A stretch of DNA of 64,000 bases from Gammaproteobacteria bacterium (lineage in GTDB: Bacteria; Pseudomonadota; Gammaproteobacteria; Ga0077536). Positions 1,158-59,451 of this stretch are shown piece after piece. The first letter of the stretch is position 1; every line of letters begins with the position of its first letter. The DNA lies in assembly GCA_009692265.1 (NCBI GenBank), contig SHZM01000009.1, positions 1 through 64,000 of the forward strand, written 5' to 3'. The position numbers were made by a program, and so were the translations under genes. Under the pieces are notes generated by a model. It made no database searches. It was not told the origin of the DNA and saw only the letters and a list, made by a program, of their open reading frames with translations.

Positions 1158-1254
1158 TGGCGGAAGAGGTAGGAGTCGAACCCACCGAACCTGCAATTAG
1201 CAGGATCCACCGGATTTGAAGTCCGGGCACCCCACCGGGAGATGTCGCTCTTCC
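1158..1254 (-). tRNA. selC: tRNA-Sec (selenocysteine tRNA), anticodon UCA, 97 nt
   Basis: Reverse complement reads GGAAGAGCG...GGACTTCAAATCCGG...GGTTCGACTCCTACCTCTTCCGCCA with a long variable arm and the ACTTCAAAT anticodon loop. It is near-identical in blocks to E. coli tRNA-Sec and lies 36 bp downstream of selB on the same strand. Confidence 0.93.
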
Positions 1255-1289
1255 GGGGCGAATCGTAACCGATTAGCTGGCCAGGGGGA

Positions 1290-3272
1290 TCACGTCGATG
1301 CCCCGAAGATATCGGCGACCTTGCGCCTGAGCTTGCGGACTTGGCCTTGACGCATCGTGAGTCCGATTCGGTCGAAATACTCCAGTACTTCGATTGTCAC
1401 GTTTCGCCCGACTTTACTGCGCTCGCGAAACGCGGCGACGGTGAATGAGTCGCCTTGTTCCGCGCCGACTTGTTCGGCCACGGTCGCGAGGCGATAGAGG
1501 GCCGACGGTAAGTAGAAGCGGTACTTGCTGACCTTGATCAGAACGCCGTTATGCGCGGCACGCTCCAGGAACGGCAACAGAATTTGAATCGTAATCTTGA
1601 GCGGCTCGAGCATGTCATGCGCGGCTGGCGCTTGCAGTCCGTGGTGTTCGAGCAGGCTGCGGACGCGCGGTAGCAGGGCGGCGTCCATCGGTGACAATTG
1701 GCCGCTGTGGCCGGCGAGATGCAGTAAGCCGGCGGTCCGGCGTAAAGTGCCTTGCTGTATCAAGTGGACGATTGCCACGCGCATCAGCGACGCGCTCAAG
1801 GTGAGGCGTTGCCGCAGCGCCGCGTCGTTTAGCCCTGCCTGCGCCGGAAATTCCTGGTGATGACTTGTCACCGCAGTGAGAGTCCCGTCAATGATTTCGG
1901 TCCAGCGCGCCGGGGTGAGCGCCAACACGGCACCATTCGCCAGAGCGATTCGTTCGATCGGAATTGCGCGGGTTAAAGCTTCGATTTCATCCGTAGTGAG
2001 ATCCCACACGCGACAAAACCACCGAAAGTCGACACCGTCCGGTTGTTGTGCCAACAACGACGCCAAAGCGGTAGTGGTTTGCGTGGTCGTCAACGCCGCT
2101 AAGGATTGGGCGCGTTTGCTCCGCGAGGTGCTGCGGATTGCGGGACAGGGGTCGAGAATCGTACCGCCGCCCAAGGTGCGGGTTGCGGCTTGATCACGCA
2201 GCACGAAACGATCGCCATGAACCGCGCAGGCGGGTGCTTCGAGTACGAGCATCGCATACCCCTGTGCACCGGGCGCGAGGCCGCGATCACCCAGCAAGCT
2301 CACCCGACCAGGCAAATCGGCGGCCCCAAGATGCACATGCACTGGAGTGCGATCCTGGAGCGCCTTCGCTTCGCTCGCGAGCAAGTGGAGTTGAACACCC
2401 AGGCGGTTCGCACCGCCGCTGAGTGCGGGATCGATTAACCAATCGCCGCGATGGATTTCGACGCGGCGGAGATCGTTGCTGGCAATGTTAATCCCGCAGC
2501 GTTCGCCGGCGCCTGCGCGGGTGACCGCTTGGTTTTGCGCGTGGATCGAACGCACCCGTACTTCGATCCCCGAAGTGGCGAGGAGCAAGCGGTCATCGAC
2601 TGCCACCATGCCCGAATACGCGGTACCGGTTACCACGCGGCCGGCGCCACCGAGGATGAAACTGCGATCGATCGCAAGGCGAAAGTGTCCGCGTTCGGAG
2701 CGCGCCCGCAATTTTCGGGCCGCACTGATTAGCAAGCCGCGGAGTTCCGCCACACCAACACCCGCCGGGGTCGCAAGCGGTACCACGTTCGCCGCAGCCA
2801 ACGAGGTAGTCGCGAGCAAGGCATGGATTTCTTCTCGCACGTTAGTGAGGCGCTCAGGCGAGACGCGATCAATCTTCGTCAAGGCAACCGCGCCCTGCGT
2901 AATCCCGAGCAGTTCGAGAATCGCGAGATGCTCGCGAGTTTGTGGCATCGGACCGTCGTCGGCGGCGATCACGAGTAACGCGAAATCGATACCGGCGACT
3001 CCGGCGAGCATGTTACGCACGAAGCGCTCATGGCCGGGGACATCGATAAAGCCGATGACGTATTCTGCGTCGGCATCATTAATAGTGTGATACGCGAAGC
3101 CAAGATCAATCGTCATCCCGCGGGCTTGTTCTTCGGGCAGGCGATCGGTATCCACGCCCGTTAGCGCTTTAACCAGTAATGTCTTGCCGTGATCGACGTG
3201 TCCGGCGGTGGCAATTATCACGGCGGCAACACGCCGAGCTGGGCGATGAACTCGCGGGGATCTTCGAGGCAA
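1290..3272 (-). CDS. selB: selenocysteine-specific translation elongation factor SelB
   Basis: 660 aa with the GTPase G1 motif AGHVDHGKT near the N-terminus and a long C-terminal winged-helix extension. It sits between selA and tRNA-Sec. The true start is probably downstream of the ORF-track start, which overlaps selA by 55 nt. Confidence 0.88.
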
Positions 3273-4702
3273 CGCAGATCAAACACCAAGGCACCCTGGT
3301 GAATGCGCCCGATCACCGGCATCGGCAACCCGCGAAAGCGAGCCGCCAGTGTTTCGACCGCGCGACTTGAAACGCGCGCGGTGAGGGGGCGCAGGCGTAC
3401 GCCACAGCTCGGCAGTTGCTCCACTGGCAATGCACCGCTTCCAATTTGACTCTTACACGCGACGAGGTCGATCTCCACATTGCTGCGGAGCGCGGTTTGG
3501 AGCGGCGCGAGCACCTCGCGAGCGGTCGCTTCGATCTCGGCTATCGGTCGCGTGAGTAGGCGCAAGGCCGGGATTACTTTTACCGCGCGTGCGGGATCCG
3601 CATACAGTGGTAATACCGCCCCAAGCGACGCCAAGGTGAGTTTATCCACGCGCAAGGCACGGGTCATCGGATTTTTTTTGAGCTTTTTGATCAGATCAGC
3701 GCGGCCCGCGATGATTCCGGCCTGTGGCCCACCCAGCAATTTATCGCCACTGAACATGACGAGATCCGCGCCGTCGCGGATCGCCTCCTGCACCGTCGGT
3801 TCGCGCGGTAACCCAAAGCGTTCGAAATCAAGCAACGTACCGCTGCCGAGATCGACGACAAAGGGGATCTGCGATTTTCGCGCAAGCGCGGCAAGTTCGG
3901 ATTCCGCGACCGCCGCCGTGAACCCTTCGATACGATAATTGCTGGTGTGGATTTTCATGATGAGGCCGGTGCGAGCATCGATTGCGCCTTCGTAATCACG
4001 CAAGTGCACTCGGTTAGTGGTACCGACTTCGCGCATCAGCGAACCGGCGGCGGCCATGACATCCGGGATCCGAAACGAACCGCCGATCTCAACTAATTCC
4101 CCGCGCGAGACGATCACGCCACGCCTTCGTGCCAAGGTATTGAGCACCAGCATAACCGCGGCGGCATTGTTGTTCACGACCGTCGCGGCTTCGGCGCCGG
4201 TTAGTCGCTGCAGCCAGCTTGCCACGTGGTCATCCCGGTCGCCGCGTTTGCCGGCTTCTAGCGAGTATTCAAGATTCGTAGCCTGGGTCGCCACTGCGGC
4301 GATTGCCTTCAGCGCGGCTTCAGGCAATGGTGCACGACCAAGGTTGGTGTGGAGCACTGTCCCCGTGAGATTGAACACCGGGATCAAGCTCGGTTTAGTG
4401 AGCGATCGCAAGTGCTTGGCAGCGGCCACGGTGAGAGACTCCGAGACTGCTTCCACCGAGGATGCCGCGAGGCCGGCTAATGCCTCGCTGCGATAGCGGG
4501 CGGTCGCCGCGCGTAAGGCGGCAACTACCGGCTCGCGTCCATGCCGATGGATTAGAGCCAGCGTGTCAGCGCGCTGCAGTAACCGATCAATCGAGGGGAT
4601 CTGAAATTTAGGCTCGGTCATCGGGGCTCTGCGCACGGCAACGAAGGAACATGGTGGCGCGCCTTGTGTGGAGTTAGGCCGCATTATATTCTCCAGGCTC
4701 AA
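3218..4702 (-). CDS. selA: L-seryl-tRNA(Sec) selenium transferase SelA (start probably at about 4621)
   Basis: Translation contains FSGDKLLGGPQAGIIAG, the PLP-lysine region of selenocysteine synthase, and is about 465-494 aa long. It sits immediately upstream of selB. The MTEPKFQIPSIDRLL start at about 4621 is more plausible than the ORF-track start. Confidence 0.88.
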   Translation of the reverse strand: MSLENIMRPNSTQGAPPCSFVAVRRAPMTEPKFQIPSIDRLLQRADTLALIHRHGREPVVAALRAATARYRSEALAGLAASSVEAVSESLTVAAAKHLRSLTKPSLIPVFNLTGTVLHTNLGRAPLPEAALKAIAAVATQATNLEYSLEAGKRGDRDDHVASWLQRLTGAEAATVVNNNAAAVMLVLNTLARRRGVIVSRGELVEIGGSFRIPDVMAAAGSLMREVGTTNRVHLRDYEGAIDARTGLIMKIHTSNYRIEGFTAAVAESELAALARKSQIPFVVDLGSGTLLDFERFGLPREPTVQEAIRDGADLVMFSGDKLLGGPQAGIIAGRADLIKKLKKNPMTRALRVDKLTLASLGAVLPLYADPARAVKVIPALRLLTRPIAEIEATAREVLAPLQTALRSNVEIDLVACKSQIGSGALPVEQLPSCGVRLRPLTARVSSRAVETLAARFRGLPMPVIGRIHQGALVFDLRCLEDPREFIAQLGVLPP

Positions 4703-4721
4703 TCATTAAACGAGTACGGAG

Positions 4722-5306
4722 GTGGCAGTGTCGCGGATCCCCTTAGTCGAGCCCGATGGCGCATCGCCCGAGGTCAAGGCAGCTTACAAACAATTCGAAG
4801 AAATCGGTTTTCCGATCATGAACGTCATGAAGATGTTCGCGAACAATGGCAAGGTGCTGCAGGGCTTTGTGCAGATCGCGCAGGCGCTTTACGTTGCGCC
4901 GCGGATCTCACCACGATATCGCGAGCTAGCGTATCTGCGAGCCTCGCAGGTCAATTCCTGTCATTACTGAATTCCCACCCATGTGATGCTCGGTCTGAGT
5001 GTCGGCTTGACGAAGGCAGAAATGTCGATGATGGGCGATGCGGAGCATTGCGAGACCTTTGATGCCAAGGACCGTCTCGTTCTGCGGTATTCAGAAACGG
5101 TCACGCGCGAGAATCGTGTCGACGACGCGTTGTATGCCGAACTGGCAGTAAATTTCACGCAAGAAGAATTGGTCGATCTCGCGTTGACCGCCGCGTTCTC
5201 ATCGTTCGTGAATCGAATCCATGCGACCTTTCGCACGGATCTGGATGAATCCACGATCGCGCAAGTCGGAGACGCAGTCACCTGCGCGCTACCCCCGCGA
5301 CGTTAA
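4722..5306 (+). CDS. AhpD-core / carboxymuconolactone decarboxylase-family selenoprotein (peroxidase-related), in-frame UGA (Sec) at 4968-4970
   Basis: ORFs 4722..4970 and 4983..5306 are in the same frame and separated only by TGA. The read-through translation is ...RELAYLRASQVNSCHY-U-IPTHVMLG..., matching the AhpD core motif E-X11-C-X-(H/Y)-C-X3-H with the second Cys replaced by Sec. It is divergent from the selA-selB-selC cluster. The start is GTG at 4722 or 4728. Confidence 0.8.
4985..5003 (+). promoter_or_regulatory. candidate bacterial SECIS hairpin (stem GAUGCUC / GAGUGUC, loop GGUCU)
   Basis: A 7-bp stem with two G-U pairs starts 15 nt after the UGA. The apical loop GGUCU puts G-U at +26/+27 from the UGA, resembling the E. 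coli fdhF SECIS loop AGGUCU. Confidence 0.5.
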
Positions 5307-5409
5307 ACGTCCGCGCCTGTCGAGCCGAATAATTGCTTCGGATCGACGGCAGCTCCGCGCGCGGCCGGTCGTGTAGACTGGTGACCTTCCCAACGCCTAG
5401 GAGAAAGCG

Positions 5410-7110
5410 ATGTTTTGGTTGATCCTCACCCTTCTCGGCGTCCTCATGGCGGCACTTCCACAGGTGTTTCCGCCGCGAATCCCACCTGCCGTAACCCGCA
5501 TCGCGGGCATTGCACTCGCGGTGTTAGCCTTCAGCGCGACGTCTTTTATCGTCATTGATTCAAACTCCGTCGGCCATCTAAAGCGGGTGTATTTCGGCAA
5601 CGCAATGCCGCCGGGGCGTGTAATCGCGATGCGCGGCGAGAACGGCCCGCAAGCCGAAGTATTGCCACCAGGCATGAACCTGCGGCCCTTTCTGAATGTG
5701 TTCTACGATATCGATGAATTCCCGGTTACGGATATTCCGTCCGGCAGCTATGGCTTGTTGACGGCGCGCGATGGACGCCCACTCAGCGACGGCGAATTCC
5801 TGGCCAAGGGGTGGCGTGAGGAAGACTTCGAAAAGATGCTCGATGCGGAATATTTTCTTAAGCATAACGGTTCGCGCGGACCGCAGCTCAGTGTTCTTAA
5901 GCCAGGGAAGTACCGCATCAACTCGTATCTATTCGATGTGAAGATTCTGCCTTCGATTGAAGTTCATGCCGGTGAAGTCGCGGTGATCAAATCCAATGTG
6001 CGTGAAAGCGATGATTGTCCGTTGCCGCAGCTGCACGGAGATAGCGGCAGCGAGGGCGGGTTGGTCGTGCCAATCGTCAAGAAAGGCTGCATTGGTGTGT
6101 GGGCCGAAGCGCTGCTGCCGAATCGGTATTATCTCAATGCGCTGGCCTATTCGGCGACGATTATTCCGACTCGCGTCCAGACGTGGACCTATAAAGGCGG
6201 CTACACCCGGCGGCAAATCGATTTAGTCGTCGGTCAGGACGGTAAAATCGAACAGCGCGAAGCACAAGCCACCGAGGTACCAGTGCCGGAAGACGCGGCC
6301 GATTCGGCGGTGGGGCTTACCGTGGAAGGTTGGCGCGTGCCATTGGAATTGCGCGCGTTGGTCCAAGTGGAACCGGAAGATGCGCCACGAGTTGTCGCGT
6401 CGGTCGGCACGTTAGCCGATGTCGAAGATAAAATTATCACCCCCGCAATCCGCAGCGTGATCCGCAATGAAACTGGACGCCCCCCTGATCCCGAGCATGG
6501 TATCGAGGGGACTCGGGTGCTGGATCTCATTACAAAACGTGCCGAGCTGGAGCGCACGATCGAGCGCGCGATCATCCCCGAAGGCCGTAAGGCCGGGGTG
6601 ACAATCAAGGAAGTCCGGTTTTCCGATCCGGTAATTCCGCCCGAGTTGTTACTCGCGGGACAACGTAAGCAACTCGCCGAGCAATTGCGCAATACCTACA
6701 TCGAGGAGAAAAAGGCGCAAGAGGAGCGCATCGACACCGAAAAAGCGCGGGCCACCGCAGATCAGCAAGGAGAGCTTGTACGCGCCGAAATCGCGGTACA
6801 GGTGGCCAACCAAACGAAGGCCAAGTTGCAGCTGGAAGGCGAGGGCGAAAAGCTACGCTTGACCGAAATCGCGTTGGGGCAAAAAGCGCAGACCGAGGTA
6901 TTGGGTCAGGAACGGGTCTTGCAGCTTGCGATGTTAAAAGAAATCTTAGCCGCCGCGTCCATCAATCCAGACCTGGTCAAAGTACCCACCGTGCTCGTGC
7001 AAGGCAGTGACGCGAATAATTTGACCGGCGCGGCGGCGGTGTTGGGATCCAGCAATATTGTGCAGTTGCTGCAACAGGCGCGATCCAGTGAGGCCGCTGG
7101 TAAGCAGTAA
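5410..7110 (+). CDS. SPFH/band-7 (flotillin-like) membrane protein with C-terminal coiled coil
   Basis: N-terminal transmembrane helices, a central beta-rich domain, and a long Glu/Lys/Ala/Gln-rich coiled-coil segment (EEKKAQEERIDTEKARATADQQGEL...). AGGAGAAAG ribosome-binding site precedes the ATG. Confidence 0.4.
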   Translation: MFWLILTLLGVLMAALPQVFPPRIPPAVTRIAGIALAVLAFSATSFIVIDSNSVGHLKRVYFGNAMPPGRVIAMRGENGPQAEVLPPGMNLRPFLNVFYDIDEFPVTDIPSGSYGLLTARDGRPLSDGEFLAKGWREEDFEKMLDAEYFLKHNGSRGPQLSVLKPGKYRINSYLFDVKILPSIEVHAGEVAVIKSNVRESDDCPLPQLHGDSGSEGGLVVPIVKKGCIGVWAEALLPNRYYLNALAYSATIIPTRVQTWTYKGGYTRRQIDLVVGQDGKIEQREAQATEVPVPEDAADSAVGLTVEGWRVPLELRALVQVEPEDAPRVVASVGTLADVEDKIITPAIRSVIRNETGRPPDPEHGIEGTRVLDLITKRAELERTIERAIIPEGRKAGVTIKEVRFSDPVIPPELLLAGQRKQLAEQLRNTYIEEKKAQEERIDTEKARATADQQGELVRAEIAVQVANQTKAKLQLEGEGEKLRLTEIALGQKAQTEVLGQERVLQLAMLKEILAAASINPDLVKVPTVLVQGSDANNLTGAAAVLGSSNIVQLLQQARSSEAAGKQ

Positions 7111-11333: not shown

Positions 11334-14300
11334 TTACACACGTCGAAGTTTCTTTCGTTGCAATAAAAAAAACGCAGCTGGGATTACAAATAAGGACAGC
11401 AGCGGTGCCGTCACCATACCGCCAACCATCGGTGCGGCGATACGGCGCATGATTTCAGAGCCCGTTCCAGTCCCGAGCAGGATCGGCAGGAGACCGGCCA
11501 GGATCACCGCCGCCGTCATTGCCTTCGGACGCACGCGGCTGACGGCACCTTCGCGGATCGCCGCTTTCAACTGTTCGATGTCGATGGTGATTCCGCTCGC
11601 CACCTGTCGTTCTAGTGCCTGTCGCAAGTACCACAGCATTACGATTCCAAACTCGGCGGCGACCCCGGTCAACGCGATAAACCCAACTCCCGTTGCCACT
11701 GACCTCTGATAGTCGAGGCTATATAACAACCACAGTCCACCCACCGACGCGCACGGAATCGTCAGCATGATTACCAACGCTTCGGAGACCCGCGCGAAAA
11801 CCACCAACAGCAACACAAAGATGATCGCGATCACGGCGGGTGCGACCCATTGCAGTCGCGCGGTGGCGCGCGCCAGGTATTCATATTGGCCCGAATAAGT
11901 CACTGTCACTCCGACCGGCAGCGGAACTTGCGCCGCGATCCCGGTCCGAAGATCGCGCACGACCCGTCCGAGATCTGAACTATTCACGTCGACATACACC
12001 CATCCCGAGAGTCGCGCGTTCTCGCTTCTGATCTGCGGTGGCCCGTCGTTGATTTTCACCGTTGCCACCGCGCCCAAAGTCAGGAGCTGCCCGTTGGAGG
12101 CGACAAACGGCAATTCGCGCAATCGCGTGAGCGAGTCTCGCAATTCGCGTGGGTAGCGTACGTTGATCGGAAATCGCGCGAGGCCTTCAACGGTCTGGTC
12201 GATGTTCTCACCGCCGACCGCCGCCGCGATAATGGTCTGGATCTCCGCGACAGTCAGACCGTACTGCGCGATCTGCTGGCGATCGATTTCAATATCGAGA
12301 TAGCGCCCGCCGGTGAGTCGTTCGGCCAATGCCGAACTCACCCCGGGCGTGACCTTTGCGATCTTTTCGATCGCACGCGCGGTGCGTTCGATGGTGACGG
12401 GATCAGGTCCGGATATTTTCACCCCAATCGGGCTTTTGATCCCGGTGGCGAGCATGTCGATCCGATTACGGATAGGCGGCACCCATAAGTTCGACAGACC
12501 CGGCACCTGCACGCGGCGATCCAACTCCGCGATGAGCGCGTCAAGGGTCAAGCCCGGGCGCCAGGCCTCGCGCGGTTTCAGTTTGATCGTCGTTTCGAAC
12601 ATTTCGAGTGGCGCGGGATCGGTCGCGGTCTCGGCGCGTCCGGCTTTGCCAAACACATGTTCCACTTCGGGCATTGCTTTGATCATTCGATCGGTGCGTT
12701 GCAACAACTCGCTTGCCTTGGCGGCCGAAAGACCCGGTAGCGCGGTCGGCATGTACAGAAGATCGCCCTCATCGAGCGCCGGCATGAATTCAGATCCCAG
12801 GTGACGCCAGGGATAGATCGCCGATAGCAACGCGAGCCCCGCCAGCAGCAAAGTGGTTCGCGGCCACCGCAGAACTGCATTCAGCAATGGCAGGTACAGG
12901 GCTACCAGCAATACGCTCAGCGGATTGTCTGCTTCGCGCGGAATGCGGCCACGGATCACATAGCCCATGAGCACCGGCGCAAGGGTGACCGACAAGCACG
13001 CGGCTGCCGCCATCGCATACGTTTTGGTATACGCCAGAGGTCCAAACAAGCGACCTTCCTGCGCCACGAGCGCGAATATCGGAGTAAACGAGATGGTAAT
13101 CAACAGCAGGCTAATAAATATTGCCGGCCCCACCTCGCTCGCCGCGTCGCCGATCACCCGCCAGCGGGTAGCGCTATCTAAGGTGTTCGCGGGATGCGCG
13201 TGCTGCCAGTGCTCTAAATGCTTGTGGGCGTTCTCGAGCATGACAATCACCGCGTCGACCATCGCGCCCACCGCGATCGCGATGCCACCCAGCGACATGA
13301 TATTCGCGGTGATCCCCTGATACTTCATCACGATGAAGGCCGCGAGCACGCTAAGCGGCAGGAGGATGATCGCAACCAACGCCGAGCGCAGATGAAACAG
13401 AAAAATCACGGTCACCGCCATCACAACTGCGAACTCCTCGATGAGCTTATTGGTTAGGTTCGCGACCGCGCGGTCGATCAACTCCGAGCGATCATAGACC
13501 GGCACGATCTCCACGCCTTCCGGTAGACCTGACGTGAGTTCCGCTAGTTTCTTGCGTACAGCTGCGATCGTGGCGCGCGCGTTACCCCCGGCGCGCAGCA
13601 ACACCACCGCGCCGACCGTTTCACCTTCGCCGTCGAGCTCCGCGATCCCTCGGCGCATTTCCGGCCCGCGTTGAATGATCGCGACATCGGCCAGGACAAT
13701 CGGGATCCCATTGCTGGCGGTGCCCAGGGGCACCGCGCGGAGATCAGCGATGCCGCGCAGATAAGTGCTCGCGCGAACCATGTATTCCGCTTCGGCGATT
13801 TCGATCACGCCGCCGCCAGTTTCGCGATTAGCCGCCTGAATCGCCGCAATCACGCGCGCAATCGGCATTCCATAGGACGCGAGCTTCATGGGATCGAGCA
13901 GCACCTGATACTGCTGCACCATGCCGCCGATCGTCGCGACTTCGGCGACCTCGGGCAGCCCCGACAATTCGAATTTTAAAAACCAGTCTTGCAGCGCGCG
14001 TAGCTGTCCAAGATCATGACGACCCGAGCGATCGACCAGCGCATATTGATAAATCCAGCCAACACCCGTCGCGTCCGGTCCCAGGTTCGATTTCGCCGTA
14101 GGCGGCAGTCGTGACTGGACTTGATTCAAGTACTCCAGCACGCGCGAGCGTGCCCAGTACAAGTCCGTCCCGTCTTCGAACAGCACATAGACAAACGAAT
14201 CGCCGTAGAACGAATACCCACGGACCGACTTCGCGCCAGGCACTGACAACATCGTGGTGGTCAGCGGGTAGGTCACCTGATTTTCGACAATTTGGGGCGC

Positions 14301-14468
14301 CTGTCCCGGCAAGCTCGTGCGAATGATTACCTGCACATCGGAGAGATCCGGCAGCGCGTCGATCGGCGTTGAGCGAACGGCCCAGATCCCCCAGGCCGCG
14401 AGGAAAAGGCTCAACGTGAGCACGATCGCTCGTTGCTCAATCGATGCTCGAATAAGGCGCGCGATCAT
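11334..14468 (-). CDS. cusA: Cu(I)/Ag(I) efflux RND permease CusA (HME-RND)
   Basis: 1044 aa. Long stretches are near-identical to E. coli CusA, for example [27 protein letters not shown] and [20 protein letters not shown]...[28 protein letters not shown]. Confidence 0.85.
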
Positions 14469-15703
14469 GGTGGGGTCTCCACATCAACCTGGCCGCGTAA
14501 ACTCGCTTCGGAATCGAACAGAAACTGACCGGACGCGACGATCCGATCACCGGCCTGTAGACCGGTACTCACTTCGATCTCGCTAGCGCCCTCATGACCG
14601 AGTTGAATCGAGACCGCGCGAAAGTGTCCGGCACTTTCTTCGCGCATGACCAAGGTGCGGGTGCCGGTACGAATAACCGCCTCGCTCGGCACCAGCACGG
14701 CGGGCTCAGAGTTGGTCGACGCAATCATCACGCGCGCTGACATGCCTGCCTTGAGCCGTCGCTCGCGGTTGGGCAGTTCGATCCGCACCCGCAAAGTGCG
14801 GGTAGCAGGATCGGTACTCGCAAGGATCGCCGCAATCGTGCCGTTGAGGGGTGTCGCCGGAAACGCCGCCAGTTCGGCGCGAACCACTTGTCCGACCTCC
14901 ACGGCTTCGGCGGCCGTTTCGGGCACTGCTATCTCCAGCCACATCGGATCAAGCCCAGTGATCGTGGCGAGGGTCACCCCAGCGCCCAGGCTCATGCCCG
15001 CGCGCACCTCCAGCGTGGTCAGTACCCCCGTGAGGGGTGCGCCAATAGTAAGAACAGGTTGTGTTTTCCCCGTGGCGACGACCGTGTCGATCAGTGCAGA
15101 CGGCATGCCGAGTCGCTGCAAACGACTACGCGCCGCGGCACTTAAACTTGAATCACCGAGGGCATACAGCGCGAGTAATTCTTGTTGAGCCGCCAGCCAT
15201 TCCGGCACCAGCAGATCGGCCAGTGGGGCGCCTTCGGCGATCTCATCACCCGGTGCGCGCGCGTATACCCTCTCGACGTAACCGGCAGTGCGAGTTTGCA
15301 CGATCGCCACGTCGCGGGCGTTGAACGCCAGCTGACCGGAGGCGATGATTTCGCGCGACAAGTTTCCCGTACGTACGGTCACCACGCGCACCCCAAGATT
15401 TTGCGCCACGACGGGGTCGATCCGAAGATTTCCCTTCTCGGCGCTATCCTGCTCGTCGTCTGCGTACTTCGGCACCAGCGCCATGTCCATGAACGGCGAT
15501 TTTCCTGGGCGATCAAAACGCTGGGTGGGCACCATTGGGTCGTACCAGTACAGCACTGTACGCGCGTTGTGCGGGGTCGGTGTCGCCTCGAATAATTTCG
15601 CACTCGAGTGCCACGCGCTCCAGTACCCGATACCGATCCCAAGGATGAGCGCTACGCCGATCGCAACACCAAGCCAGGAGTTACTCGTGCGCATCGTGTT
15701 CAC
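14465..15703 (-). CDS. cusB: efflux RND periplasmic adaptor (CusB/CzcB family)
   Basis: 412 aa with an N-terminal membrane anchor and a membrane-fusion-protein beta-barrel/lipoyl fold. It is translationally coupled to cusA by a 4-nt overlap. Confidence 0.75.
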
Positions 15704-57866: not shown

Positions 57867-58664
57867 TCAACACCCCCGATACACCGGCGACCGCTTTTCC
57901 ATGAACGCACGCGGCCCTTCGATCGCGTCTTCGGTGACGAACACAGGGCCCGAGATCTCGCGCTCGATGGCGAGCGCTTCTTGTTCTGGCTTGCCCAGGC
58001 ATGCGCGCGCCGAGCGCCGGATCGCCTTGACCGCGAGCGGTCCGTTGGCGGCGATCTTGTGTGCGATCTCAAGCGCCTTGGCGAGCGGATCTGCCACCAC
58101 GTAATTCAGAAATCCGAGTTGCAACGCTTCGTCCGCGGTGATCAGATCCCCGGTTAACAGCAATTCCATCGCCTTCGCGTAGGGTAGCTGTACCAGCAGG
58201 CGTACGCTTGATCCGCCGGCCGGGAACAACGCCCATTTAACTTCTTGTACCCCGAACTTGGCGGCTGGAACCGCGACGCGGATATCAGTGCCCTGCACGA
58301 TTTCCATGCCGCCCGCGATCGCGTGGCCGTTGATGGCGGCGATGATTGGTTTTTCGGTATCAAAGTCACGCAGCAGCGCACGGCCGATGAGGGCGCGATC
58401 TTGCATTACCCGCTCATCCCATTCGTTCTGTGGTTTGCGCGCACCGGAAATCAGCGGGATCAGTTGACCGAGATCAGCGCCCGCGCAGAAGGCGCTGCCG
58501 GTGCCTGTGAGGATCCCGACACGTACTTCTGAGGTGTCGCGAATCGCCGTCCAGGCATCGGCTAGACGCACTGCTACTTCTGGATTGACCGCGTTGCGCG
58601 CCTCGGCACGGTTTAGAGTGACGATCGCGATATGTCCATTGACTTCGTAGTTCACTAGCGCCAT
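57867..58664 (-). CDS. enoyl-CoA hydratase/isomerase (crotonase family)
   Basis: Oxyanion-hole region AFCAGADLG and MALVNYEVNGHIAIVTLNRAEARNA. Confidence 0.85.
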   Translation of the reverse strand: MALVNYEVNGHIAIVTLNRAEARNAVNPEVAVRLADAWTAIRDTSEVRVGILTGTGSAFCAGADLGQLIPLISGARKPQNEWDERVMQDRALIGRALLRDFDTEKPIIAAINGHAIAGGMEIVQGTDIRVAVPAAKFGVQEVKWALFPAGGSSVRLLVQLPYAKAMELLLTGDLITADEALQLGFLNYVVADPLAKALEIAHKIAANGPLAVKAIRRSARACLGKPEQEALAIEREISGPVFVTEDAIEGPRAFMEKRSPVYRGC

Positions 58665-58797
58665 GGCAGAACCTCCCAGTGTTTGGACGGAGCTTAGCCG
58701 GGTCACCGCGTAACCGAAAGGACTAACCGAGCCCTCTATGCGTCGTTGTGGTTCGCGCTTATCCTCCTTCACCCACCCCTCACCCAAAGGAACCACC

Positions 58798-59451
58798 ATG
58801 GACGTTTACGATGCGATGCAAACTTTGAATGCGTGCCGCTATTACAAACCAGATCCAGTGTCCGACGCCCTGGTTGCCAAAGTGCTTAACGCGGCACGCT
58901 GGGCTGCCACCGGCAGCAATAACCAACCGGTCACCTATGTTGTCGTGCGGGATGCGGCAAAGCGCCGCGCGATCCATGACTGTTATCAGCCGATCTGGGA
59001 CACGGTGATCAAGAAATATGCGAGCGGCGAAATTAAATCGGGCTTCTCGTCGAGCTTTCTCCAGAATGTTGATCACTTCGCCCGGCATTTCGCGGAGATA
59101 CCAGTACACATCGTGGTGTGTGCACGCTGGAAAGACCTCACGGCGTTGGATGCGAGCCTCGATCGCACAGTGCTAACGCCGGGCTCGTCGATCTATCCCG
59201 CAGTCCAGAATCTCATGCTCGCGGCGCGCACTGAAGGCTTGGGCACCGTGCTCACGACTCTGCTGGTCCTGGCCGAAAAGGACATCAAGAAGCTGCTGAA
59301 TATTCCCGACGAATTAGCGACCGCGGCGGTGATCACCTTGGGTTGGCCGGAGAAACCCTTCCCGGAAAAATTGAAGCGTAAGCCCTTGAGTGAGATCGCG
59401 TTTCTCGATTCGTATGGTGCGGCACTGCCAAGCGCGGGACCACCTAGTTAG
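58798..59451 (+). CDS. nitroreductase-family protein
   Basis: RYYKPD, SNNQP and GLGTV nitroreductase-fold motifs. AAAGG ribosome-binding site precedes the ATG at 58798. Confidence 0.75.
   Translation: MDVYDAMQTLNACRYYKPDPVSDALVAKVLNAARWAATGSNNQPVTYVVVRDAAKRRAIHDCYQPIWDTVIKKYASGEIKSGFSSSFLQNVDHFARHFAEIPVHIVVCARWKDLTALDASLDRTVLTPGSSIYPAVQNLMLAARTEGLGTVLTTLLVLAEKDIKKLLNIPDELATAAVITLGWPEKPFPEKLKRKPLSEIAFLDSYGAALPSAGPPS

What the first reader, a model, noticed from the sequence alone, without database searches (positions are those of the whole stretch)
4985..5003. SECIS-like hairpin 15 nt downstream of the UGA
GAUGCUC-GGUCU-GAGUGUC forms a 7-bp stem (two G-U pairs) with apical loop GGUCU. The loop G-U lies at +26/+27 from the UGA, close in sequence (compare AGGUCU in E. 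coli fdhF) and spacing to a canonical bacterial SECIS recognised by SelB.
Basis: seen in the sequence. Interest (0 to 1): 0.55.

Follow-up and report, generated by a model that had tools for sequence, protein, structure and literature searches.

The report
Selenocysteine insertion hairpin in AhpD-like gene
The small RNA hairpin is real and is almost certainly the signal that makes the ribosome read a UGA stop codon as selenocysteine in an AhpD-like redox protein, a well-known kind of bacterial element, here in a gene that public annotation splits into two "hypothetical" pieces.

Summary
The hairpin GAUGCUC-GGUCU-GAGUGUC (4985-5003, +) exists as described and is in the minimum-free-energy fold of the RNA downstream of the UGA. 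By itself it is unremarkable: its folding z-score is about 0, and 4.5-7% of all TGA triplets in the window are followed by a comparable hairpin. The context makes the case. The UGA (4968-4970) sits in frame in a 192-194-codon AhpD/CMD-family gene, at the second Cys of the CxxC redox motif (SCHY-U-IPTH). More distant full-length homologues carry Cys there. selA, selB and tRNA-Sec lie directly upstream on the other strand. All 39 orthologous loci recovered keep the TGA and a nearly invariant hairpin. 99.6% of stem cells pair, and there is one G-C to A-U compensatory change. Synonymous sites inside the hairpin are strongly frozen (Leu always CUC, Gly always GGU; codon entropy 0.37 against 1.63 outside). 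The element meets four of the five published consensus constraints for bacterial SECIS elements outright; the free-energy limit is met only when flanking bases are included. AhpD-like CxxU selenoproteins with predicted SECIS elements have been known since 2005. This is an ordinary, unannotated new member of a known kind. SelB binding and Sec insertion are inferred, not shown.

The parts
4968..4970 (+). In-frame UGA, predicted selenocysteine codon (motif S-C-H-Y-U-I-P-T-H; CxxU)
   Evidence: translation. TGA is conserved at this codon in all 39 orthologous loci. Cys occupies this position in more distant full-length homologues P0045, P0065, P0066, P0073, P0081 and P0126.
4985..5003 (+). SECIS hairpin: 7-bp stem GAUGCUC/GAGUGUC with 5-nt apical loop GGUCU (4992-4996). 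RNAalifold adds an eighth pair, U4984-G5004.
4992..4996 (+). Apical loop GGUCU. G, G and U are invariant, C is near-invariant, and the fifth base is free (U/A/G/C). That base is the middle base of a codon, so the residue there varies L/Q/R/P/S.
4728..5306 (+). AhpD/CMD-family selenoprotein gene. The longest ORF starts at GTG 4722. The likely start is GTG 4728, 5 nt after GGAGG at 4718-4722, which matches orthologue N-termini M-SRIPLVEP. The stop is TAA at 5304-5306.
3218..4702 (-). selA (L-seryl-tRNA(Sec) selenium transferase), divergently transcribed from the selenoprotein gene
   Evidence: TIGR00474, 576.6 bits against a cutoff of 267.9
1290..3272 (-). selB (Sec-specific elongation factor) with C-terminal winged-helix domains. 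The ORF start is probably over-extended, because the model alignment begins at residue 18.
   Evidence: TIGR00475, 424.4 bits. PF09106 and PF09107 SelB winged helices and PF25461.
1158..1254 (-). selC, tRNA-Sec (anticodon UCA)
   Evidence: Rfam RF01852, 64.2 bits against a gathering score of 47. ARAGORN tRNA-SeC. Sequence.

Best explanation
The hairpin at 4985-5003 is a bacterial selenocysteine insertion sequence (SECIS) lying inside the coding region of an AhpD-like (COG2128/YciW-type, CMD-fold) selenoprotein gene. The inferred mechanism runs as follows. When the ribosome places UGA 4968-4970 in the A site, the mRNA upstream is unwound. The 7-8 bp stem then forms at the mRNA entrance and presents its apical GGUCN loop. 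The C-terminal winged-helix domain of SelB, encoded 1.7 kb away, binds the loop G-U. This tethers the SelB-GTP-Sec-tRNA(Sec) complex to the ribosome, so that it outcompetes RF2 and Sec is inserted. The product is a 192-residue protein whose redox motif is C-H-Y-U, with Sec replacing the second Cys of the AhpD CxxC. It is presumably a thiol/selenol-dependent peroxide or disulfide reductase. What is shown here: the hairpin, its conservation, the in-frame conserved UGA, the Cys homologues and the adjacent Sec machinery. What is inferred: SelB binding, Sec insertion and the enzymatic role.
For: (a) The gene is read through the UGA. Both halves match one CMD/AhpD domain spanning the UGA (Pfam PF02627 residues 45-102, 3.4e-13; TIGR01926 residues 4-170; PDB 3c1l, where CYYCLTAH aligns to CHY[U]IPTH). 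The four codons between the TGA and the next ATG (I-P-T-H) are conserved as amino acids while varying at synonymous third positions, so they are translated in the upstream frame.
(b) TGA is kept in 39 of 39 orthologous loci from soil, freshwater and marine metagenomes, a Binataceae MAG and a gammaproteobacterial MAG. All 34 protein-database hits are fragments cut at this codon.
(c) Cys occupies the same column in 27-35% identical full-length homologues.
(d) Hairpin conservation: 99.6% of cells paired, against 16-48% for slid controls. The pair at columns 18-36 is GC:29, AU:2, GU:2, with one mismatch. The pair at 21-33 is GU:24, GC:10. RNAalifold independently predicts the same stem plus one extra pair.
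(e) Synonymous suppression: Leu is CUC in 35/35, Gly is GGU in 35/35, Ser is only AGY. Neighbouring conserved Leu, Gly, Pro and Thr codons use 4-6 codons each. Codon entropy is 0.37 inside against 1.63 outside (Mann-Whitney p = 4e-4). Third-position entropy is 0.26 against 1.34 (p = 1.7e-5).
(f) The element meets four of the five constraints of the published bSECIS consensus quoted in PMC13188914 outright. Loop of 5 nt (allowed 3-9). Stem of 7-8 bp (allowed 4-16). GG then U at the start of the loop. 21 nt between UGA and loop (allowed 16-37). The fifth, MFE of -7.5 or lower, is met only with flanking bases (-7.8 and -9.2).
(g) selA, selB with SelB winged-helix domains, and tRNA-Sec are immediately adjacent. 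This divergent synteny recurs in at least 10 other loci.
(h) TGA is an ordinary stop elsewhere in the window, for example the crotonase gene at 57867-58799, so this is not a reassigned genetic code.
(i) The closest Cys homologue (P0045, TGT codon) lacks the stem in this register: 3 of 7 pairs are broken (n = 1).
Against: The hairpin is thermodynamically unexceptional (z about 0). The bare 19-nt stem-loop is only -6.3 kcal/mol, above the -7.5 threshold of the consensus model unless flanking bases are included. In longer contexts it is often out-competed: 19 of 39 orthologues keep it at 90 nt, and the pair probability is 0.11 with 60 nt of upstream sequence. Covariation is limited to one pair in two closely related sequences. 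Shuffle controls are not extreme (26/500), and four of the seven pairs never vary. Conservation therefore rests mainly on frozen synonymous sites, which show an RNA- or DNA-level constraint but not specifically SelB binding. No Rfam family matches the region. There is no bulged U as in E. coli fdhF, and the loop is 3 nt further from the UGA (comparison from my own knowledge of fdhF). selD was not found among the window ORFs tested (not exhaustive).
Confidence: 0.9

Rival explanations
1. There are two separate small genes. The UGA is a genuine stop of an 80-82-aa protein, and the 106-aa ORF starting at ATG 4986 is translated independently or by reinitiation. On this reading the conserved nucleotides around the ATG are a translation-initiation region, not a SECIS.
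For: Gene callers in public records annotate exactly this split (P0001, 106 aa, 'hypothetical protein EXR86_03540'; 80-aa plus 106-aa genes in L040-L042). The ATG lies inside the 5' arm of the hairpin.
Against: The I-P-T-H-V codons between TGA and ATG are conserved at the protein level with synonymous variation in the upstream frame. They form the xxxH part of the AhpD CxxCxxxH motif, and that His is invariant in alignment A4. One Pfam domain spans the UGA. Full-length Cys homologues are single polypeptides. No purine-rich Shine-Dalgarno sequence precedes the ATG (ATTCCCACCCATGTG). The conservation extends 3' of the ATG in a pattern that preserves base pairing.
Confidence: 0.03
2. The conserved nucleotide block is constrained for a reason other than SelB recruitment. 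Candidates are a regulatory RNA or DNA site, a ribosome-pausing structure, or codon-usage or protein constraints on M-L-G-x-S-V. UGA decoding would then occur by another route, such as near-cognate readthrough.
For: Covariation is weak. The stem is thermodynamically ordinary. SelB binding is untested.
Against: Protein constraint cannot explain invariant 4- and 6-fold degenerate third positions, nor the exclusive use of AGY for Ser. The only freely varying base of the 19 is the unpaired 3' loop base, even though it changes the amino acid. That is the pattern expected if RNA structure plus the GGUC loop is under selection, not the peptide. Geometry and loop sequence fit the published bSECIS consensus. 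The complete selA-selB-selC set is adjacent, and no other plausible selenoprotein gene was found in the window.
Confidence: 0.05
3. The gene is a pseudogene, or the TGA is a sequencing or assembly error in a Cys-encoding gene, and the hairpin is coincidental.
For: A comparable hairpin follows 4.5-7% of TGA triplets by chance.
Against: The same TGA is present in 39 independent loci from different assemblies and habitats. Both halves are under purifying selection, and no frameshifts were seen.
Confidence: 0.01

Closest known systems
Bacterial SECIS elements (consensus model of Zhang & Gladyshev 2005, as summarised in PMC13188914); prototype E. coli fdhF SECIS
   Same: It lies in the coding region directly 3' of an in-frame UGA. 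It has a small apical loop beginning GGU(C), the same GGUC and the same codon phase (GGU CUG) as fdhF (fdhF sequence from my own knowledge). The stem is 7-8 bp. The UGA-to-loop distance of 21 nt is inside the 16-37 nt range. A cognate SelB with winged-helix domains is encoded nearby.
   Different: The loop is 5 nt with a C-G closing pair (fdhF has a 4-nt GGUC loop closed by A-U). The loop G-U is at +26/+27 rather than +23/+24. There is no bulged U in the stem. The stem contains two adjacent G-U wobble pairs, forced by the Met (AUG) codon. No lower-stem extension is conserved.
AhpD-like selenoprotein family (COG2128/YciW, TIGR01926, CxxU) of the Sargasso Sea and GOS selenoproteomes (PMC1088965; 'AhpD-like 1' in PMC2398784; table in PMC13188914)
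   Same: It has the CMD/AhpD fold, a CxxU motif in place of CxxC, and Cys homologues. It occurs in marine, freshwater and soil metagenomes. TIGR01926 is its best full-length NCBIfam match.
   Different: It scores below the TIGR01926 curated cutoff (57.7 against 81.8 bits), so it is a diverged subfamily or an outlier. In a subset of genomes it sits divergently next to selA-selB(-selC). The reference member (MCB9421940.1) could not be fetched for direct comparison.
Mycobacterium tuberculosis AhpD and structural-genomics AhpD-like proteins (PDB 3c1l Mlr4105, 2pfx, 6e8l)
   Same: The all-helical AhpD-like domain is detectable by sequence (E = 4e-9 to 4e-6). The redox motif C-x-x-C-x-x-x-H aligns with C-H-Y-U-I-P-T-H.
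   Different: Sec replaces the second Cys. There is a conserved extra C-terminal Cys (residue 188 in the 194-codon numbering). The partner and substrate are unknown.

Membership tests
Bacterial SECIS (bSECIS consensus, PMC13188914 Fig. 2A) | Stem-loop in the coding sequence immediately downstream of an in-frame Sec-UGA | tested here: met
   UGA 4968-4970 is in frame in a CMD-family ORF, and the hairpin is at 4985-5003.
Bacterial SECIS (bSECIS consensus, PMC13188914 Fig. 2A) | Apical loop of 3-9 nt and upper stem of 4-16 bp | tested here: met
   5-nt loop and 7-bp stem, or 8 bp with U4984-G5004.
Bacterial SECIS (bSECIS consensus, PMC13188914 Fig. 2A) | G in one of the first two loop positions, usually followed by G or U | tested here: met
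   The loop is GGUCU, and G, G and U are invariant in 36/36 aligned loci.
Bacterial SECIS (bSECIS consensus, PMC13188914 Fig. 2A) | 16-37 nt between the UGA and the apical loop | tested here: met
   21 nt (4971-4991), identical in all loci; the alignment is ungapped.
Bacterial SECIS (bSECIS consensus, PMC13188914 Fig. 2A) | Minimum free energy of -7.5 kcal/mol or lower | tested here: inconclusive
   -6.3 for the bare 19 nt, -7.8 for 21 nt, -9.2 for the 45 nt from the UGA. The result depends on which segment the criterion is applied to.
Bacterial SECIS (bSECIS consensus, PMC13188914 Fig. 2A) | Structure conserved among orthologous selenoprotein genes | tested here: met
   99.6% of cells paired, one compensatory pair, frozen synonymous sites.
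Bacterial SECIS (functional definition) | Binds SelB and directs Sec insertion at the UGA | not testable with these tools
   Needs EMSA or ITC, a reporter assay, 75Se labelling or mass spectrometry.
E. coli fdhF-type SECIS | Bulged U in the upper stem and loop G-U at +23/+24 | tested here: not met
   The stem is continuous and the loop G-U is at +26/+27. The fdhF features are from my own knowledge. The element works like fdhF's SECIS but is not of that exact subtype.
Rfam RNA families | Match to any curated covariance model at 4700-5320 | tested here: not met
   Only two chance-level hits (E = 3.6 and 4.2) to unrelated eukaryotic families.
AhpD-like selenoprotein (TIGR01926 / COG2128, CxxU) | CMD/AhpD domain with CxxU aligned to the CxxC of Cys homologues | tested here: met
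   PF02627, 49.8 bits against a cutoff of 23. U aligns with Cys in P0045, P0065, P0066, P0073, P0081 and P0126 and in 3c1l.
AhpD-like selenoprotein (TIGR01926 / COG2128, CxxU) | Score at or above the TIGR01926 curated cutoff | tested here: not met
   57.7 bits against 81.8 (U replaced by C). It is the best hit and covers the full length, but is below threshold.
YciW-related selenoprotein NF053654 / AhpD_rel_CFYUT NF041238 | Score at or above the curated cutoff | tested here: not met
   50 against 310 bits, and 27.4 against 175 bits.
Sec-decoding trait in the host | selA, selB and selC present | tested here: met
Sec-decoding trait in the host | selD (selenophosphate synthetase) present | tested here: inconclusive
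   Not found among 15 window ORFs scanned. Only part of the window was scanned, and the rest of the genome is unavailable.

The most novel reading that the evidence does not exclude
selC-selB-selA together with the divergent AhpD-like selenoprotein gene may form a compact, horizontally transferable 'minimal selenocysteine module'. On this reading the near-invariant SECIS (17 of 19 nt fixed or nearly fixed across orthologues down to about 52% protein identity, from at least two phyla) co-travels with its cognate SelB. The AhpD-like protein would then be the dedicated, perhaps founding, client of the module, or a redox sensor or regulator of the Sec pathway itself.
Probability: 0.12. Interest if true: 0.45.

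Novelty: new member of a known kind. Interest (0 to 1): 0.22.

Why it matters
The main value is practical. This gene and dozens of orthologues are split in public annotation into an 80-aa piece and a 106-aa piece, labelled 'hypothetical'. Recognising the UGA plus SECIS restores a 192-residue AhpD-like selenoprotein and marks the host, an uncultured gammaproteobacterium, as a selenocysteine user. The locus is also a clean example of an RNA structure constraining a protein sequence. The peptide M-L-G-x-S-V is fixed by the stem, while the single unpaired loop base drifts freely and changes the residue among L, Q, R, P and S. The element adds nothing conceptually new to SECIS biology.

Tried and rejected
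(1) Thermodynamic significance: z-scores of +0.54 and -0.08 and a 4.5-7% background rate after TGA. I rejected stability as evidence.
(2) A longer lower stem (columns 13-17 with 37-42, taken from the window's MFE) is not conserved. Pair 16-39 pairs in only 13 of 34 sequences and pair 13-42 in 21 of 34. Only U17-G37 is kept.
(3) Rfam: no SECIS or other family matches at E up to 10.
(4) A second copy of the hairpin motif in the window, for example an autoregulatory SECIS-like element near selAB: none within 3 mismatches.
(5) Other selenoprotein genes in the window: I scanned every TGA with at least 50 open codons on both sides. Only 4968 combines a redox-type motif with a good hairpin. The 'RGC-U' candidate at 57869(-) is the normal stop of a crotonase gene.
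(6) selD was not found among 15 ORFs scanned.
(8) A literature search for the SelB-SECIS structural details (GGUC loop, Moorella complex) found nothing usable in the held library. Those comparisons rest on my own knowledge.
(9) The ARAGORN 'tRNA-???' at 14497-14593 has no Rfam support.
(10) No structure prediction was run, because the U-to-C sequence is not accepted and the PDB sequence match already places the motif.

Full report
OBSERVATION. The window reads TGA at 4968-4970, followed after 14 nt by GATGCTC GGTCT GAGTGTC at 4985-5003. The loop G-U is at +26/+27 when the U of UGA is +1. RNAfold places the hairpin in the MFE and centroid structures of 4965-5040 and 4968-5012. The hairpin is not thermodynamically special. 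Its z-scores against dinucleotide shuffles are +0.54 and -0.08. The bare hairpin is worth -6.3 kcal/mol.

WHAT SURROUNDS IT. The ORFs 4722-4970 and 4983-5306 are in the same frame. Read through the TGA, they give a 194-codon product with one carboxymuconolactone-decarboxylase/AhpD domain spanning the stop (PF02627, residues 45-102, E = 3.4e-13). The best full-length NCBIfam match is the 'peroxidase-related enzyme' model TIGR01926 (residues 4-170, 57.7 bits, below its 81.8-bit cutoff). The UGA sits in S-C-H-Y-U-I-P-T-H, at the second Cys of the AhpD C-x-x-C-x-x-x-H redox motif. In PDB entry 3c1l the aligned residues are C-Y-Y-C-L-T-A-H. A GGAGG at 4718-4722 and the orthologue N-termini (M-SRIPLVEP) suggest that the true start is GTG 4728.

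Directly upstream on the opposite strand lie three Sec-machinery genes.
- selA at 3218-4702 (TIGR00474, 577 bits).
- selB at 1290-3272 (TIGR00475, 424 bits), carrying the SelB winged-helix domains PF09106 and PF09107.
- tRNA-Sec at 1158-1254 (Rfam RF01852, 64 bits; ARAGORN, anticodon UCA).
TGA serves as a normal stop elsewhere in the window, for example the crotonase gene at 57867-58799, so the genetic code is standard.

RELATIVES. A protein search returned 34 hits, and all are fragments cut at this codon. They are either 106-aa C-terminal pieces beginning MLGLSVG or N-terminal pieces ending SCHY. The source record's own annotation is among them ('hypothetical protein EXR86_03540', Gammaproteobacteria MAG). 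Scans of genome and metagenome contigs, plus look-ups of two proteins, gave 39 orthologous loci at 52-87% protein identity. They come from soil, lake and ocean samples and include a Binataceae MAG. Every one has TGA at the same codon. An exhaustive HMMER search with the C-terminal 111 residues found full-length homologues at 27-35% identity. Several have Cys in the Sec column (P0045 RCHYCIPTH, P0065, P0066, P0073, P0081, P0126). This is the classical Sec/Cys pair criterion for a selenoprotein.

IS THE HAIRPIN SELECTED? The 54 nt from the TGA align without gaps in 36 loci.
- The outer pair is G-C in 29 distinct sequences, A-U in 2 (L031, L032; both sides changed), G-U in 2, and mismatched in 1.
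- The pair at 21-33 alternates G-U (24) and G-C (10).
- The pair at 20-34 is U-G, with one U-A.
- The other four pairs never vary.
RNAalifold independently predicts the same stem plus U17-G37. Covariation is therefore present but thin, and the shuffle control is not extreme (26/500).

The strongest evidence is at synonymous sites. Within the hairpin, Leu is CUC in 35/35, Gly is GGU in 35/35, Ser is only AGU or AGC (never UCN), and the two Val codons use only G/A or C/U at the wobble position, the changes that preserve pairing. Equally conserved Leu, Gly, Pro, Thr, Ala and Arg residues just outside use 4-6 codons each. Codon entropy is 0.37 inside and 1.63 outside (Mann-Whitney p = 4e-4). Third-position entropy is 0.26 against 1.34 (p = 1.7e-5). 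Conversely, the one freely varying base of the 19 is the last loop base (U/A/G/C), even though it is a second codon position and changes the residue among L, Q, R, P and S. The RNA is under selection here, not the peptide.

The I-P-T-H codons between the TGA and the next ATG vary only synonymously. This shows translation in the upstream frame across the UGA and argues against a 'two genes' reading. Folding 45 or 60 nt from the UGA keeps the hairpin in 34 of 39 orthologues. At 90 nt only 19 of 39 keep it. With 60 nt of upstream sequence included, the pair probability in the window falls to 0.11. This is a real limitation. It is expected, however, for an element that has to form only once the ribosome has unwound the upstream mRNA. 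The nearest Cys homologue (TGT codon) does not form the stem in this register: 3 of 7 pairs are broken (a single control).

COMPARISON WITH WHAT IS KNOWN. A 2026 review (PMC13188914, read) gives the published bacterial SECIS consensus:
- a 3-9 nt apical loop;
- a 4-16 bp upper stem;
- a G in the first two loop positions, usually followed by G or U;
- 16-37 nt between UGA and loop;
- an MFE of -7.5 kcal/mol or lower.
This element has a 5-nt loop GGUCU, a 7-8 bp stem and 21 nt spacing. Its energy is -6.3, -7.8 or -9.2 kcal/mol depending on the segment folded. All criteria are met except that the energy criterion is borderline. The loop GGUC, and even its codon phase (GGU CUG), match E. coli fdhF (my own knowledge). 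It lies one codon further from the UGA, has a fifth loop base, and the stem lacks the bulged U. No Rfam family matches.

AhpD-like CxxU proteins (COG2128) were reported as a new selenoprotein family, with predicted SECIS elements, in the Sargasso Sea study (27 sequences, PMC1088965). They were among the most abundant families in the GOS data ('AhpD-like 1', 299 sequences, PMC2398784). The 2026 review lists the family under TIGR01926. The present gene is best filed as a diverged, unannotated member of that known kind. It fails the curated cutoffs of TIGR01926, NF053654 and NF041238, so I do not claim strict membership of any one NCBIfam model.

SYNTENY. The divergent selA-selB arrangement recurs in L005, L007, L010, L015, L019, L021, L022, L040, L041 and L042, with tRNA-Sec also present in L021. 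It is absent from other loci with enough upstream sequence, such as L001, L023 and L028. It is therefore clade-specific. It suggests co-regulation or co-transfer of the Sec machinery with this client gene, which is the basis of the speculative 'minimal Sec module' reading.

MECHANISM (inferred). With the UGA in the A site, the hairpin forms at the mRNA entrance. The C-terminal winged helix of SelB binds the GGU(C) loop and delivers Sec-tRNA(Sec) in competition with RF2. The product carries a C-x-x-U selenenylsulfide redox centre in an AhpD fold and is presumably a peroxide or disulfide reductase. A conserved C-terminal Cys (invariant in 29 sequences) might act as an additional resolving residue.

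VERDICT. The element is an ordinary bacterial SECIS in a known type of selenoprotein, so its novelty is low. Its practical value is in correcting annotation.

Noticed in passing
window 4722-5306 (+); also L040 5743-6321, L041 5743-6321, L042 3214-3792: Public gene calls split this selenoprotein gene at the UGA into an 80-aa gene and a 106-aa gene. The window's own record calls the C-terminal piece 'hypothetical protein EXR86_03540'. All 34 database homologues are such fragments.
   Followed up: yes
window 4996 (+), middle base of codon 4995-4997: The fifth loop base is the only freely varying base of the hairpin (U/A/G/C across orthologues). Because it is a second codon position, the residue there switches among Leu, Gln, Arg, Pro and Ser, while the flanking M-L-G and S-V-G are invariant. 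The RNA constrains the peptide, not the reverse.
   Followed up: yes
window 5283-5285 (+) (Cys188) and 5049-5051 (+) (Cys110): There are two further conserved cysteines in the Sec-containing orthologues. A C-terminal Cys in D-A-x-x-C-x-L-P is invariant in 29/29 sequences, and Cys110 is present in 31/35. Neither is conserved in the distant Cys-type homologues. They may be resolving residues for the CxxU centre.
   Followed up: partly
window 1158-4702 (-); L021, L022, L040-L042: selC-selB-selA form a compact cluster divergent from the selenoprotein gene. The selA and selB ORFs overlap (3218-3272 as listed; a 4-nt overlap in L040 and L041), which suggests translational coupling. The synteny with the AhpD-like gene is conserved in at least 10 loci but not in all orthologues.
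   Followed up: partly
window 14497-14593 (-): ARAGORN reports a 97-nt 'tRNA-???' with a two-base anticodon. Rfam finds nothing there even at E up to 1, and the position lies at the junction of two large minus-strand ORFs (11334-14468 and 14465-15703). It is probably a false positive.
   Followed up: partly
window 5410-7110 (+): The 566-aa ORF immediately downstream of the selenoprotein gene has only an SPFH/Band 7 domain (PF01145, E = 5.5e-13) and no NCBIfam match. It is not conserved next to the orthologues. In L040-L042 a luciferase-like monooxygenase follows instead.
   Followed up: partly
L043 1446-2030 (closest Cys homologue, P0045): The Cys-type homologue (codon TGT, motif RCHYCIPTH) lacks the SECIS stem in register. 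Its first 45 nt after the Cys codon fold into a different, fairly stable hairpin (-13.8 kcal/mol, CCUACACA...UGUAGGG). Whether this is chance or a remnant was not examined.
   Followed up: no
window 1-64000: No selD (selenophosphate synthetase) was found among the 15 larger ORFs scanned. No second convincing in-frame-UGA selenoprotein candidate appeared in a scan of all TGAs with at least 50 open codons on both sides.
   Followed up: partly
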